Assembly: GCF_009914755.1 (NCBI RefSeq)
Contig: NC_060943.1
From: the human T2T-CHM13v2.0 reference genome, Homo sapiens
Direction: 5' to 3' (one strand)
Length of the DNA stretch: 64,000 nucleotides
Under the pieces are notes generated by a model. The model was not told where the DNA came from. It was given only the letters and a program-made list of their open reading frames with translations, and did no database searches. Shown here piece by piece: positions 49,401 to 52,192 of the stretch (its first letter is position 1; every line of letters begins with the position of its first letter). The position numbers were made by a program, and so were the translations under genes.

Positions 49401-52192
49401 AGCAGCTCAGGTTATTCGGCTTATTGTGTCCACGCACCTCCTCCTGTCTGACACTTTTCCCGACCCCCGAGGAAGCCAGATGTGGCTCCCTCTCCAGCTC
49501 GACTCCAAGACACGGGATGGGAGAGGCCGTCAGCCAAGGGGTTGGACAGGCCATTGACCAGGAGGCTGGAGAGACTGCCGGCTCTGGAGTCAGTGAGGCC
49601 CGGGGCCCTGGGGTGGCAGCTGCGGGGTCACAGCGCCCCTTCCTGCCCTCACACCCATCGTGCAGGGGCCCCATGTGTGAATGTCGTCTGCACCGTCGCT
49701 CTGTCAGCGTCCGTAGGTCTCCCGGATCACAGTCCTGCCCCCATTCTCCTGGGAGCTTCCCAGACAAGTGTCATATTCTCCCATGTCCCCCTCTTTCTCC
49801 GCCACCCCACGGTCTCCTGAGACTTGCCAAGTGGACTTGACTGCAAGAGCTTAGACAGGCGGGATAACGTCCCCACCATCACAGAGTGGAAAATAGGGAT
49901 ACAGAGTCAGAAGCAGTGGGGTGGCTCTGGCAGAAACGATAGTGCGCGCATCAGGGGCACAGCATGGGTGGGGAACAGGAGGCTGAGGGAGCCTCAGGGT
50001 GACGACTATCAGCGAGGCCGCCCATCCTCGGGCAGCGGCAGCTTTCAGAGAAACTTGGAGCCCTCTCCCGGCAGGGACCACTAGGGCCTCACCCCATCTC
50101 AGCCTTCCACAGAGGTGCCAAACTCACCCAGGAGGACTCACTGCCGCTGTCACCTCTGCTGCCACCACTGTTGCCACTGCTGCCACCACTGCTGCCGCCA
50201 CTGCTGCCGCCACTGCTGCTGCCACTGCTGCTGCCACCACTGCTGCTGCCATTGTTGTTGTCACCATTGCTGCCACTGCCACTGCTGCCCGACTGTGAGC
50301 CGCTGCCTCCCTGAGGGGCAGGAAGGGAGCAGGGCTGGGATTAAAGACAGAGCACCAAGACGGGCCCCTCCTCCCTCCCTCTCCACCCAGGCCATATTCC
50401 ATGATGCCCAGTCTAAGGGGAGCAGAACTTCTCCATTTCCTCCTGGTGCACAACTCCTGGGTTGCCCCTCTCCACTCACCCCAGAGTTGCTGGAGCCTCC
50501 ACCTGAGCCAGATGGTGGGGGATTCGTGCACTGTCGAGGGAAAGGGATGGTGAGTTTGGGGACGGTGAGTTTGGAGACGTTGGCCTCGGCCATGGACACA
50601 GGCCAGGCCTCTCCCATTCTTTGGGGCTTGGCTTCCTTTCTCCTAATGTGTTTCTCCCACCTCCCCTTCCCATCTGCCTCCTCCCCAGGCCCAGGCCCGT
50701 CTCTTCCTCCTTTTTTTTTTTTTTTTTTTTTTGAGACAGGGTCTCACTCTGTTGCTCAGGCTGGAGTGCAGTGATGCGATCTCGGCTCACTGCAACCTCC
50801 ATCTCCCAGGTTCAAGTGATTCTCCTGCCTCCGCCTCCCAAGTGGCTGCAATTACAGGCGCATGCCACTATGACCGGCTGATTTTTGTATTTTTAGTGAA
50901 GACAGGGTTTCACCATGTTGACCAGGCTGGTCTTGAACTCCTGACCTCAGGTGATCCACGTGCCTTGGCCTCCCAAAGTGCTGGGATTACAGGTGTGAGC
51001 CACCTCGCCCAGCCCCATCTCTTCCTCTCACCCCAATCCCTCCACTCCCCCATCTTGCTTTCCTCTTTGTCTTTCCCCAGCTCTCTGTAGCCTGCACCCA
51101 GTGGCTTCTTCATTTGTTCCCAGCCCCTTCCTCTTACCCCTTCATTCTGGTTGCTGGCTCTCACTGAACCATAGCCAGGCTGGGCCACAGCTCCCTGCAG
51201 AGAGGGTGAGACTGAGAGTAGGATCCAGAGGGACCAGGGAGGCACGCGGAGCATGTGGGCTTGGAGGGAGGGAGGTGGCAGGTAGCAGGTCTGGGGGTGA
51301 CTTTACCTGAGTGTTGGTCCCAAAGTTTGGTGGCCCTCCATTGCCTCCTTGACCCCAGGGAGCTCCCTGAGGATTCATTCCAAAGCTGCCTGCTGAGTTT
51401 CCGGGGTATCCGTGGACCCACGGAGTCCCCAGACCTCCAGGATTGCCCTGGCCCTGGCCTCCAAGGCCACCTTGAGAGCCAAAGATGCCATGGCCTCCAG
51501 AAGTTTCCTGCAAGAACAACATACCTGCACTTAGTGGGACCATCTCTGACCCTGGTAGAGAAGAGCCAGGGCAAATCATAAAGAGACCAGGAGAGAGACA
51601 GGCAGAGGGACTCCAGGGTGGCATAGGAGGGGGGCAGAACATAGAAGGAAGCTGCCCCAGAAGCCTGCAAGTAAGAGATCCATCCATCCTTTCAACCGTT
51701 TCCCAAGAATCTCAGCCCAGCAGCCCACAGCCTCCCATTTCCACATGCAGCCCCACAGCCACTCACCCAAGCACCATTGTGGCCAGGCACCCCCTGCCAG
51801 GAGCCGCGGACAGCATCTGCTCCGTGTCGAATGACATCTTCTGCCTGTCTGCCAATCTCGTGCCCAGTGTTTCCCAGAGCATGGGCTGCTTCCCCGACCC
51901 TGTTGCCCAAAGCATCTGCTGCGCCAAAGCCTGGAACCTGCCTGACTCCAGTGCCAACTGCTTCTCTGGTCCCTTGGCCAAGGGCCTCACTGACTTTAGA
52001 GCCAGCTGCCCCTCCGGCCTCTTTGCCAATGGCCTTTCCCACCCCTTCGCTCAGGGCGTCTCCCAGGCCATGTCCAAGGGCCTCCCCAATATTTGTCCCA
52101 GTGCTTTCCTCTCCGCTCTGCAGGGGGCCAGCCTCCCCACTGCCCAGGCAGAGGGCCAGCAGGAGGCAGGCCAGGGGCCCCTGGAACTTCAT
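37434..52192 (-). CDS. DMKN: Dermokine, long (beta-type) form: signal peptide, Gly/Ser-rich domain and C-terminal microexon region
   Basis: ATG at 52192 ([21 protein letters not shown]...), 18 main phase-0 exons plus an optional cassette, ending ...[15 protein letters not shown]. Leaving out the exons at 46922, 46175, 44843 and 39096 gives 476 aa. Confidence 0.98.
37592..37615 (-). CDS. DMKN: DMKN microexon (24 nt)
   Basis: cag|GGVSPSSS|gtgagt. Confidence 0.93.
37909..37966 (+). repeat. 26-bp tandem duplication (about 2.2 copies)
   Basis: ccacagataacccggcagagtggaag / ccacagataactcagcagagtggaag / ccacag. Confidence 0.9.
38676..38747 (-). CDS. DMKN: DMKN exon (72 nt)
   Basis: cag|[24 protein letters not shown]|gtgaga. 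Confidence 0.95.
39096..39137 (-). CDS. DMKN: DMKN optional cassette exon (42 nt)
   Basis: cag|[14 protein letters not shown]|gtgaga, phase 0. Confidence 0.8.
39251..39298 (-). CDS. DMKN: DMKN exon (48 nt)
   Basis: cag|[16 protein letters not shown]|gtgagt. Confidence 0.95.
40541..40621 (-). CDS. DMKN: DMKN alpha-isoform first exon with its own signal peptide
   Basis: [27 protein letters not shown]|gtgggt, phase 0; with exons 39251, 38676, 37592 and 37434 it gives a 90-aa secreted product. Confidence 0.9.
40655..40723 (-). promoter_or_regulatory. DMKN: Intronic DMKN-alpha promoter
   Basis: CATAAAA 40655-40661, AP-1 40692-40698, CACCC and GC boxes. Confidence 0.75.
40854..40901 (-). CDS. 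DMKN: DMKN exon (48 nt)
   Basis: cag|[16 protein letters not shown]|gtaagg. Confidence 0.95.
41548..41604 (-). CDS. DMKN: DMKN exon (57 nt)
   Basis: cag|[19 protein letters not shown]|gtagga. Confidence 0.95.
42038..42043 (-). terminator. DMKN: DMKN internal polyadenylation signal
   Basis: tttatt on the + strand, about 95 nt after the DQRSSRIP stop. Confidence 0.8.
42139..42165 (-). CDS. DMKN: DMKN alternative terminal exon (gamma-type), coding part
   Basis: cag|[11 protein letters not shown] followed by AATAAA at 42038-42043. Confidence 0.85.
44435..44482 (-). CDS. DMKN: DMKN exon (48 nt)
   Basis: tag|[16 protein letters not shown]|gtaagg. Confidence 0.95.
44656..44703 (-). CDS. DMKN: DMKN exon (48 nt)
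   Basis: tag|[16 protein letters not shown]|gtgagt. Confidence 0.95.
44843..44902 (-). CDS. DMKN: DMKN cassette exon
   Basis: cag|[20 protein letters not shown]|gtgagt. Confidence 0.9.
46175..46228 (-). CDS. DMKN: DMKN cassette exon
   Basis: tag|[18 protein letters not shown]|gtgagc. Confidence 0.9.
46922..46957 (-). CDS. DMKN: DMKN cassette exon
   Basis: cag|[12 protein letters not shown]|gtaaga. Confidence 0.9.
47020..47650 (+). mobile_element. Decayed L1 ORF2 fragment
   Basis: A-rich sequence with catactctaaagctaccata, resembling the L1 ORF2 3' region. Confidence 0.5.
48628..48678 (-). CDS. DMKN: DMKN exon 7
   Basis: cag|[17 protein letters not shown]|gtgaga. Confidence 0.95.
48901..48969 (-). 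CDS. DMKN: DMKN exon 6
   Basis: cag|[23 protein letters not shown]|gtgagt. Confidence 0.95.
49088..49144 (-). CDS. DMKN: DMKN alternative internal start exon (delta-type, no signal peptide)
   Basis: [19 protein letters not shown]|gttgga, phase 0, in frame with exon 48901-48969; matches my recollection of the short intracellular isoforms; weak donor. Confidence 0.7.
49508..49612 (+). pseudogene. Inverted partial duplicate of DMKN exon 1
   Basis: Ungapped 81/105 nt identity to the reverse complement of 51971-52075; [34 protein letters not shown] vs [34 protein letters not shown]. Confidence 0.9.
50128..50310 (-). CDS. DMKN: DMKN exon 5, Gly/Ser repeat (61 aa)
   Basis: cag|GGSGSQSG...(GSSS/GGSS)n...SESSW|gtgagt. 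Confidence 0.95.
50480..50530 (-). CDS. DMKN: DMKN exon 4
   Basis: cag|[17 protein letters not shown]|gtgagt. Confidence 0.95.
51138..51194 (-). CDS. DMKN: DMKN exon 3
   Basis: cag|[19 protein letters not shown]|gtaaga. Confidence 0.95.
51307..51507 (-). CDS. DMKN: DMKN exon 2 (67 aa)
   Basis: cag|ETSGGHG...FGTNTQ|gtaaag. Confidence 0.96.
51767..52192 (-). CDS. DMKN: DMKN exon 1, coding part (142 aa)
   Basis: MKFQGPL...GVPGHNGAW|gtgagt. Confidence 0.97.

What the first reader, a model, noticed from the sequence alone, without database searches (positions are those of the whole stretch)
49508..49612. Hidden inverted copy of DMKN exon 1 inside intron 5
Seen: the + strand at 49508-49612 aligns without gaps to coding exon 1 (minus strand 51971-52075) with 81/105 nt identity, counted by hand. 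The reading frame is intact and 22/34 residues are identical ([34 protein letters not shown] vs [34 protein letters not shown]). It is not a transposon. In the pre-mRNA the two arms are complementary, and six of the mismatches become G-U pairs. They bracket exons 2-5, and the copy sits in the CpG-rich region just upstream of the delta start exon. Inference: this is an old inverted duplication. It could (a) form a long-range stem looping out exons 2-5, (b) act as a gene-conversion partner for exon 1, or (c) be the relic of an oppositely oriented paralogue. I do not recall it being described.
Basis: partly seen in the sequence, partly recalled or inferred. Interest (0 to 1): 0.9.

Follow-up and report, generated by a model that had tools for sequence, protein, structure and literature searches.

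The report
Old inverted exon-1 fragment in DMKN
A 105-base piece of the first coding exon of the human skin gene dermokine was copied long ago, backwards, into a later intron of the same gene, and the evidence fits a slowly decaying relic better than a working part.

Summary
Window + 49508-49612 matches the reverse complement of 51971-52075 (DMKN coding exon 1) at 81/105 nt without gaps. The match has blastn E 1e-18 in the window, and these are the only two such places in the whole T2T genome. Identity falls to 5/20 on both flanks, so this is a discrete inverted segmental copy. It is not a transposon, and it is not the remains of a whole paralogue: no other DMKN exon has a + strand match.

The copy is old and has not been homogenised with exon 1. 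It keeps ancestral residues at four codons where the ape or human exon changed, and it matches aye-aye and New World monkey exon 1 better than human exon 1. It has lost glycines that orthologues keep. Its open frame is unremarkable: 49% of simulated copies stay open. No homologous protein exists for the + strand ORF.

The two arms can pair (-166 kcal/mol, present in the MFE of the 3-kb pre-mRNA). However, all five inferred ape-lineage exon changes break pairs. All 6 Old World monkey dermokines found lack 96 nt of the exon arm. Fifteen longer Alu-type inverted pairs lie in the same gene.

The most likely reading is a neutral relic. Orthologous DNA could not be examined.

The parts
49508..49612 (+). 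Intronic inverted copy of an internal 105-nt segment of DMKN coding exon 1. It lies in the intron between exon 5 (50128-50310) and the 45-nt cassette exon 49313-49357.
   Evidence: 81/105 nt ungapped; blastn E 1e-18; the repeat finder pair I16; unique in the genome.
51971..52075 (-). Source or partner arm inside DMKN coding exon 1, codons 40-74 of dermokine-beta/gamma.
   Evidence: codon table.
52074..52084 (-). First copy of an 11-nt direct repeat in exon 1. It ends where the homology with the intronic copy begins.
   Evidence: the repeat occurs twice in exon 1, 96 nt apart.
51978..51988 (-). Second copy of the 11-nt direct repeat. The 96 nt between the two repeats equal the 32 aa missing from all 6 Old World monkey dermokines found.
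49613..49660 (+). Possible decayed continuation of the copy. It is visible only if human exon 1 is given a 48-nt (16-aa) insertion relative to the copy. The signal is weak.
   Evidence: MAFFT aligns the copy with the non-haplorhine form of exon 1; 18/48 identical at the +48 offset, reached by 15 of 379 offsets; no significant local alignment (346 of 500 shuffles score as high).
49088..49187 (-). Context: alternative first exon with no upstream acceptor, the likely start of the ubiquitous delta transcripts. The copy is 321-425 nt upstream of it.
   Evidence: Hub exon table; sequence; passages of PMC3053396 state that delta transcripts start at their own site and are ubiquitous.
49313..49357 (-). 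Context: internal 45-nt cassette exon (AG acceptor, GT donor), 151 nt downstream of the copy in the transcript.
   Evidence: Hub exon table.

Best explanation
This is the relic of one old, local, inverted copy-and-paste event. About 105-150 nt from the middle of DMKN coding exon 1 was copied in reverse orientation into what is now the intron after exon 5, 2.36 kb away. The event was probably a template switch or templated break repair; that mechanism is inferred, not shown. Since then the copy has drifted as non-coding intronic DNA and has not exchanged sequence with exon 1. Its position upstream of the delta start, its open frame and its ability to pair with exon 1 in the beta/gamma pre-mRNA are by-products rather than maintained functions. 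The age is inferred to be at least pre-ape and probably stem-primate or older, roughly 40-120 Myr.
For: Shown by calls:
- The pair is real and unique in the genome.
- The ends are sharp: 81/105 identical inside, 5/20 in each flanking 20 nt.
- No other DMKN exon has a + strand match in the window.
- The copy's peptide matches aye-aye (69.4% of 36 aa, 55.5 bits) and titi monkey (71.1% of 38 aa) exon 1 better than human exon 1 (60.5% of 38 aa, 48.1 bits).
- Of 13 amino-acid differences from human, codons 43, 49, 53 and 66 (5 nt) carry the state seen in most other primates in the copy and a derived state in human or apes.
- The copy has replaced Gly40 and Gly56, which are Gly in 13 of 13 correctly aligned orthologues, and Gly61, which is Gly in 11 of 13. 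It is therefore not under dermokine-like protein constraint.
- The open frame is not evidence of selection: 51% of 20,000 simulated arms with 24 random substitutions gain a stop, so 49% stay open.
- Pairwise dN/dS is 0.45, from only 9.5 synonymous and 14.5 non-synonymous differences. That figure includes the constrained exon branch.
- The + ORF (107 aa) has no relative among proteins of 58-188 aa in the 5.8-billion-protein set, and no hit at E<=0.001 among 1.84 billion representatives.
- No Rfam family matches either arm.
- All 6 Old World monkey DMKN clusters found lack the 32 aa (96 nt) that make up most of the exon arm, so the pairing is dispensable in that clade.
- The Jukes-Cantor distance between the arms is 0.27. 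From recalled primate neutral rates, this fits neutral decay over tens of Myr.
Against: - No orthologous intron DNA from any other species could be examined, so neutral-rate decay of the copy is inferred and not measured.
- There are no indels in 105 nt. By my estimate this is only mildly unusual, and I ran no test.
- dN/dS of 0.45 is below 1.
- The left end of the homology and the Old World monkey deletion both sit at the same 11-nt direct repeat. This coincidence is not explained.
- The stem is strong (-166 kcal/mol against -77 +/- 6 for shuffles) and survives in the MFE fold of the 3067-nt unspliced region.
- The copy lies in a region with about twice the window's CpG o/e, upstream of an alternative promoter. 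A regulatory role cannot be excluded.
Confidence: 0.7

Rival explanations
1. Exapted promoter or enhancer sequence. The copy has become part of the upstream control region of the ubiquitous delta transcripts or of the neighbouring cassette exon. Its exon-1 origin is irrelevant to what it does now.
For: The copy lies 321-425 nt upstream of the acceptor-less exon 49187-49088/96. The region 49100-49800 has 63% GC and CpG o/e 0.50, against 0.29 for the window. Delta transcripts are described as ubiquitous with their own start site (passages of PMC3053396). The copy keeps 4 CpGs against 3 in the exon arm.
Against: The RefSeq enhancer named in the hub table (48896-49205) does not include the copy. 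No chromatin, CAGE or conservation data were available here. CpG o/e of 0.50 is below the usual island threshold of 0.6 (recalled).
Confidence: 0.12
2. Functional long-range RNA stem in the beta/gamma pre-mRNA. The intronic arm pairs with exon 1, looping out exons 2-5 (492 nt, in frame). It thereby influences splicing or acts as an editing-complementary sequence for ADAR on exon 1.
For: Duplex energy is -166.0 kcal/mol, with 81 WC and 6 G-U pairs out of 105 positions; shuffled arms give -77.4 +/- 6.3. The MFE fold of the 3067-nt unspliced RNA contains 86 in-register pairs between the arms. An exon paired with a downstream intronic complement is the layout of classic recoding sites (recalled knowledge).
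Against: All 5 nucleotide changes inferred on the ape or human exon lineage convert pairs into mismatches. Only 6 of 10 transition differences give G-U pairs, as expected by chance. The exon arm is 96-nt deleted in 6 of 6 Old World monkey clusters. None of the 70 DMKN protein clusters shows an exon 1-to-6 junction. Fifteen longer inverted pairs lie in the same gene and offer competing dsRNA. Eleven of these have both arms in repeat-masked stretches listed in the hub table; the other four pair such a stretch with 36891-37239. One member scores as SRP/Alu-like. Searches 'DMKN'+'ADAR' (10 papers; listing, plus passages of two) and 'DMKN'+'circRNA' (14 papers; one listed) found no report of editing or of an exon 2-5 circle. 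The one circ_DMKN candidate is 195 nt and, by hg19 gene coordinates that I recall, lies in the last exon.
Confidence: 0.1
3. Gene-conversion partner that exchanges sequence with exon 1.
For: The arms are in the same gene, 2.36 kb apart, in inverted orientation.
Against: The copy keeps ancestral states at 4 codons where the exon changed, and the exon keeps ancestral states at about 8 codons where the copy changed, so neither arm has overwritten the other. The 24 differences are spread along the arm and the longest paired run, G-U pairs included, is 14 nt. This is far below the roughly 130-230 bp of near-identity needed for efficient mammalian recombination (recalled).
Confidence: 0.03
4. Remnant of, or a coding exon for, an oppositely oriented dermokine-like gene on the + strand.
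For: The frame stays open from 49400 to 49840 (146 codons), and an ATG-initiated ORF of 107 aa runs from 49517 to 49840.
Against: No other DMKN exon has a + strand match. Identity falls to chance at both ends. No homologous protein was found. Conserved glycines are replaced. An open frame is expected by chance about half the time. The hub table shows no + strand gene here.
Confidence: 0.03

Closest known systems
Small intragenic inverted duplications or templated insertions (template-switch or break-repair copies of nearby sequence)
   Same: A short segment (about 100 nt) with sharp ends, copied in inverted orientation a few kb from its source, present once, with no transposon features.
   Different: The junction microhomology or outgroup 'empty site' that would prove the mechanism could not be examined. 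The event is old, so the junctions have decayed.
Exon / intronic editing-complementary-sequence duplexes of ADAR recoding sites
   Same: A coding exon segment has an imperfect complement in a downstream intron of the same pre-mRNA. The duplex is predicted to be stable.
   Different: No editing evidence was found in the searches made. The complement is four introns downstream. One arm is deleted in Old World monkeys. The inferred exon changes break pairs.
Inverted Alu pairs in introns (dsRNA and circRNA-promoting complementary sequences)
   Same: Inverted complementary arms within one pre-mRNA. One search lists 41 inverted pairs in DMKN, this one among them.
   Different: This pair is unique sequence, and one arm is coding exon rather than intron, so it does not flank a back-splice in the usual way. 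It is shorter than 15 other pairs in the gene.
Internal 16-aa Gly/Ala-rich repeat units of the dermokine N-terminal domain
   Same: The copied segment is two such units. A secondary blast hit at a 48-nt shift shows the periodicity. Orthologues gain and lose 16-aa or 32-aa units.
   Different: Those changes are tandem and in-frame within exon 1. This copy is inverted and intronic.

Membership tests
Local inverted segmental duplication (relic) | Statistically significant similarity in inverted orientation between two nearby unique sequences | tested here: met
   81/105 nt; E 1e-18 in the window and 1.7e-14 genome-wide; only two places in the genome.
Local inverted segmental duplication (relic) | Discrete ends rather than gradual loss of similarity | tested here: met
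   5/20 identical in the 20 nt beyond each end, against 81/105 inside. A weak hint of a further 24-48 nt appears if a 48-nt exon insertion is allowed.
Local inverted segmental duplication (relic) | Presence or absence pattern in orthologous loci that dates the event | not testable with these tools
   No non-human mammalian DNA is held. Only orthologous proteins were available. Residue states give an indirect age.
ADAR editing-complementary sequence | Stable exon-intron duplex in the pre-mRNA | tested here: met
   -166 kcal/mol; 86 in-register pairs in the MFE of 3067 nt. This is thermodynamic prediction only.
ADAR editing-complementary sequence | Observed A-to-I editing in the duplex | not testable with these tools
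   No RNA-seq was available. The search 'DMKN'+'ADAR' gave 10 papers, none on DMKN editing judged by the listing; passages of two were read.
ADAR editing-complementary sequence | Both arms kept across species | tested here: not met
   6 of 6 Old World monkey DMKN clusters lack 32 aa (96 nt) of the exon arm. The state of the intronic arm in other species is unknown.
circRNA-promoting flanking complementary sequences | Both arms in the introns that flank the circularised exons | tested here: not met
   One arm lies in exon 1 (hub table).
circRNA-promoting flanking complementary sequences | A circle of the bracketed exons is observed | tested here: inconclusive
   The only DMKN circle found in print is a 195-nt candidate (supplement of PMC7046790). 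By hg19 coordinates that I recall, it lies in the last exon and not in exons 2-5. circRNA databases were not searched.
Gene-conversion donor/acceptor pair | Long tracts of near-identity, with arms sharing lineage-specific derived states | tested here: not met
   The longest paired run, G-U pairs included, is 14 nt. The copy lacks the 5 ape or human-derived exon substitutions.
Paralogue relic / pseudogene | Traces of further exons in the same orientation | tested here: not met
   tblastn of two full dermokines against the window gives one + strand hit only, the copy. The genome-wide protein search gives the same result.
Protein-coding exon or ORF on the + strand | Homologous proteins, or conservation of the family's key residues | tested here: not met
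   No hits. Gly40 and Gly56 (13/13 in orthologues) are replaced. An open frame is expected by chance in 49% of simulations.

The most novel reading that the evidence does not exclude
In primates other than Old World monkeys, the intron-5 copy is a working long-range partner of exon 1 in the beta/gamma pre-mRNA. It would act as a structural or ADAR-recruiting element that tunes splicing around exons 2-5 and the 45-nt cassette exon. The clade-wide 96-nt deletion of the exon arm in Old World monkeys would then be a natural knockout of it. A related possibility is that the inverted repeat itself made the exon arm fragile and provoked that deletion between the flanking 11-nt direct repeats.
Probability: 0.07. 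Interest if true: 0.6.

Novelty: new member of a known kind. Interest (0 to 1): 0.25.

Why it matters
If it is a neutral relic, as seems most likely, it is a small, tidy example of an ancient inverted exon-to-intron copy, and it preserves older residue states of a fast-evolving skin protein. It is also a caution for variant calling, primer design and CRISPR guide design in DMKN exon 1. If the pairing or the promoter position were functional, it would give a simple, testable handle on how the many dermokine isoforms are chosen. Old World monkeys would then serve as a ready-made natural deletion of one arm.

Tried and rejected
- I looked for other species' versions of the copy through predicted proteins. 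The + ORF and the whole-library HMMER search gave nothing. The - strand ORF matched only the window's own protein, P0071. The 'near' length limits apply.
- I tried to extend the homology by gapped DNA alignment. The core is only 99 nt, and the tail's best local score was reached by 346 of 500 shuffles.
- A specific +48-nt offset, suggested by the protein alignment, gave 11/24 identical (24 of 403 offsets as good) and 18/48 (15 of 379). This is suggestive but not significant enough to claim.
- Transposon or dispersed repeat is rejected by genome-wide uniqueness.
- Whole-paralogue relic is rejected.
- An Rfam scan of 48800-52400 at E<=1 gave only Alu/SRP-like and weak miRNA-like hits in 50313-51013, and none at either arm.
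- An exon 1-to-6 skipped isoform was not seen in any of the 70 DMKN clusters. These clusters are only those returned by one search.
- Six literature searches found no description of the inverted copy: dermokine+suprabasin+evolution, 11 papers; dermokine+inverted, 12; dermokine+delta+promoter, 46 (12 listed); DMKN+ADAR, 10; DMKN+circRNA, 14 (12 listed); dermokine+duplication, 15 (14 listed). I saw listings only, plus passages of PMC3053396, PMC13460826, PMC5877511, PMC7046790 (with one supplement passage), PMC5554394 and PMC2394760.
- The primary gene-structure papers (Matsui 2004, Moffatt 2004, Toulza 2006, Naso 2007) are not in the searchable library and were not read. The claim 'not in print' is limited accordingly.
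Full report
**1. Observation**

Reading both places and comparing them by script confirms the finding. Window + 49508-49612 equals the reverse complement of 51971-52075 at 81 of 105 positions without a gap. The shared frame is open in both arms.

Within the window, blastn gives 99 nt at 78.8% with E 1.07e-18. 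Nothing else scores better than E 0.03 for either arm. tblastn of the exon-1 peptide gives 38 aa at 60.5%, E 6.4e-10. The repeat finder reports the same pair independently as I16: 104 nt, 78% complementary, 2358 nt apart.

In the whole 3.1-Gb assembly, a 231-nt query over the copy finds only itself and exon 1. A protein-level search with the exon-1 peptide finds only exon 1 (E 9e-85) and the copy (E 6.9e-5) below E 1e-3. The pair is real, far beyond chance, and not a dispersed repeat.

**2. Anatomy**

Identity is 81/105 inside the arms and 5/20 in the 20 nt beyond each end. A gapped local alignment does not extend it.

The exon arm covers codons 40-74 of dermokine-beta/gamma. It sits between two copies of an 11-nt direct repeat, at 52084-52074 and 51988-51978, which are 96 nt apart. 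The homology starts at the end of the first repeat and ends 7 nt after the second.

By the hub table, exons 2-5 lie between the arms. Their lengths sum to 492 nt.

Downstream of the copy in the transcript, 49357-49313 is an internal 45-nt cassette exon with an AG acceptor and a GT donor. The exon 49187-49088/49096 has no acceptor and is the likely delta start. The copy is therefore 151 nt upstream of the cassette exon and 321-425 nt upstream of the delta start.

Passages of PMC3053396 describe delta transcripts as ubiquitous, with their own start site and no signal peptide.

The region 49100-49800 has 63% GC and CpG o/e 0.50. The window average is 0.29 and exon 1 is 0.25. The region is CpG-enriched but not a strict island.

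No Rfam family matches either arm.

**3. Age and direction, from orthologous proteins**

A search with the exon-1 peptide returned 70 dermokine clusters from primates and other placentals.

I ran tblastn with the first 170 aa of each cluster against 49301-49900. The results were:

| Orthologue | Identity to the copy | Score |
|---|---|---|
| Aye-aye | 69.4% of 36 aa | 55.5 bits |
| Titi monkey | 71.1% of 38 aa | 55.1 bits |
| Capuchin | 68.4% of 38 aa | 52.8 bits |
| Human | 60.5% of 38 aa | 48.1 bits |

The copy therefore matches several non-human orthologues better than it matches human exon 1.

Position by position (codons), 13 residues differ between the copy and human.
- At codons 43, 49, 53 and 66 (5 nucleotides) the copy carries the residue seen in most other primates, and human or the apes carry a derived one.
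- At codon 73 the copy shares Pro with aye-aye and colugo.
- At about eight codons the copy is the derived one. These include Gly40 to Arg and Gly56 to Asp, both Gly in 13 of 13 correctly aligned orthologues, and Gly61 to Glu, Gly in 11 of 13.
- Two of the 15 sequences in that table, Pteropus and Chrysochloris, were out of register and are not counted.

MAFFT places the copy with the non-haplorhine form of the exon, which lacks a 16-aa unit that haplorhines have. I tested that idea at the DNA level with a +48-nt offset. The result was 11/24 identical (24 of 403 offsets as good) and 18/48 identical (15 of 379 offsets as good). This is a hint, not a demonstration.

The Jukes-Cantor distance between the arms is 0.27.

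My inference is that the copy predates the ape-specific exon changes and probably dates to stem primates or earlier. The two arms have since evolved independently.

**4. Is anything maintained?**

*Coding.* The frame is open from 49400 to 49840 and contains an ATG-initiated ORF of 107 aa. However, 49% of 20,000 simulated arms with 24 random substitutions also stay open. The ORF has no relative among proteins of 58-188 aa and no hit at E<=0.001 among 1.84 billion representatives. The family's conserved glycines are lost. Pairwise dN/dS is 0.45 on 9.5 synonymous and 14.5 non-synonymous differences. That figure includes the constrained exon branch, so it does not show constraint on the copy.

*RNA stem.* The arms give 81 WC pairs, 6 G-U pairs and 18 mismatches, with a longest helix of 14. 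The duplex energy is -166.0 kcal/mol, against -77.4 +/- 6.3 for 200 shuffles. The MFE fold of the 3067-nt unspliced RNA contains 86 in-register inter-arm pairs. Pairing is therefore possible. Several results argue against maintenance of the stem:
- All five inferred ape or human exon substitutions turn pairs into C·U, G·G, A·G or A·C mismatches (derived).
- Only 6 of 10 transition differences fall in the G-U orientation, which is about chance.
- None of the 70 clusters shows an exon 1-to-6 junction.
- The same gene holds 41 inverted pairs, of which 15 are longer than this one. Eleven of those 15 have both arms in repeat-masked stretches listed by the hub. The other four pair such a stretch with 36891-37239. 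One member scores as SRP/Alu-like in Rfam.

The strongest argument comes from Old World monkeys. All 6 clusters found (Rhinopithecus, Cercocebus, Colobus, Piliocolobus, Mandrillus, Macaca) lack exactly 32 aa of exon 1. That equals the 96 nt between the two direct repeats and 96 of the 105 nt of the arm. None of the six proteins matches the copy. A whole clade has done without the pairing.

*Conversion.* The independent divergence described above, and the longest paired run of 14 nt (G-U pairs included), argue against any current or recent exchange.

*Paralogue relic.* Only one + strand dermokine-like hit exists in the window, and its ends are sharp.

**5. Best explanation and rivals**

- Most likely (0.7): a neutral relic of one old, local, inverted templated copy.
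- Next (0.12): exaptation into the delta upstream region. Support is position and CpG content only.
- Then (0.1): a functional stem or editing-complementary sequence.
- Conversion partner and + strand coding: 0.03 each.

**6. Comparison with the known, and novelty**

This works like other small inverted intragenic duplications. It resembles exon/ECS duplexes and inverted Alu pairs only in geometry, and the defining features of those classes were not met or could not be tested (see Membership tests).

Six full-text searches and the passages read contain no description of it. The original gene-structure papers are outside the library and were not read.

It is a new instance of a known kind, of modest interest.

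**7. Limits**

No non-human DNA was available. Conservation, covariation, presence in other lineages and the insertion mechanism therefore remain untested. Ages rest on residue states and on recalled neutral rates. The placement of the published circ_DMKN candidate in the last exon rests on hg19 gene coordinates that I recall.

Noticed in passing
window 51978-52084 (-), exon 1: All 6 Old World monkey dermokine clusters found lack exactly 32 aa of exon 1. This equals the 96 nt between two 11-nt direct repeats in the human sequence. The deletion nearly coincides with the exon arm of the inverted pair. Whether that coincidence is chance or a consequence of the inverted repeat is unexplained.
   Followed up: partly
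window about 51920-51970 (-), exon 1: Haplorhine primates carry an extra 16-aa Gly/Ala-rich unit in the N-terminal domain. Aye-aye, colugo and most other placentals in the alignment lack it. Other lineages (cetaceans, carnivores, bats, rodents) show their own gains and losses of 8-, 16- or 32-aa units, so this domain evolves by unit indels.
   Followed up: partly
window 49313-49357 (-): The alternative exon nearest the copy is an internal 45-nt Gly/Ser-rich cassette with canonical splice sites, not a first exon. The acceptor-less exon 49088/49096-49187 is the likely delta start.
   Followed up: partly
window 36891-51018: Forty other inverted repeat pairs lie in the DMKN gene. Fifteen are longer than the finding, for example 42296-42492 / 43012-43208 (197 nt, 84%, 519 nt apart). 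Most arms fall in hub-masked repeats. 50731-51013 scores as SRP/Alu-like in Rfam.
   Followed up: partly
window about 36009-36203 (-), last exon: A published skin RNA-seq study lists a novel 195-nt circRNA candidate from DMKN (supplement of PMC7046790). By hg19 gene coordinates that I recall, it falls inside the 3'-most exon, which is unusual for a back-splice and may be an artefact.
   Followed up: no
window 49378-49674 (-): A 98-aa ATG-initiated ORF on the gene's own strand overlaps the copy. The only database match is the window's own 129-aa ORF, P0071.
   Followed up: partly
window 52074-52084 (-): Human has Leu where gorilla, chimpanzee, orangutan, gibbons and most New World monkeys have Ile, just before the arm (the last residue before the Gly-His). 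This makes the first direct repeat a perfect 11-nt match to the second repeat in human. Codons 43 and 49 are also human-specific changes. This short stretch therefore changed three times on the human lineage.
   Followed up: no
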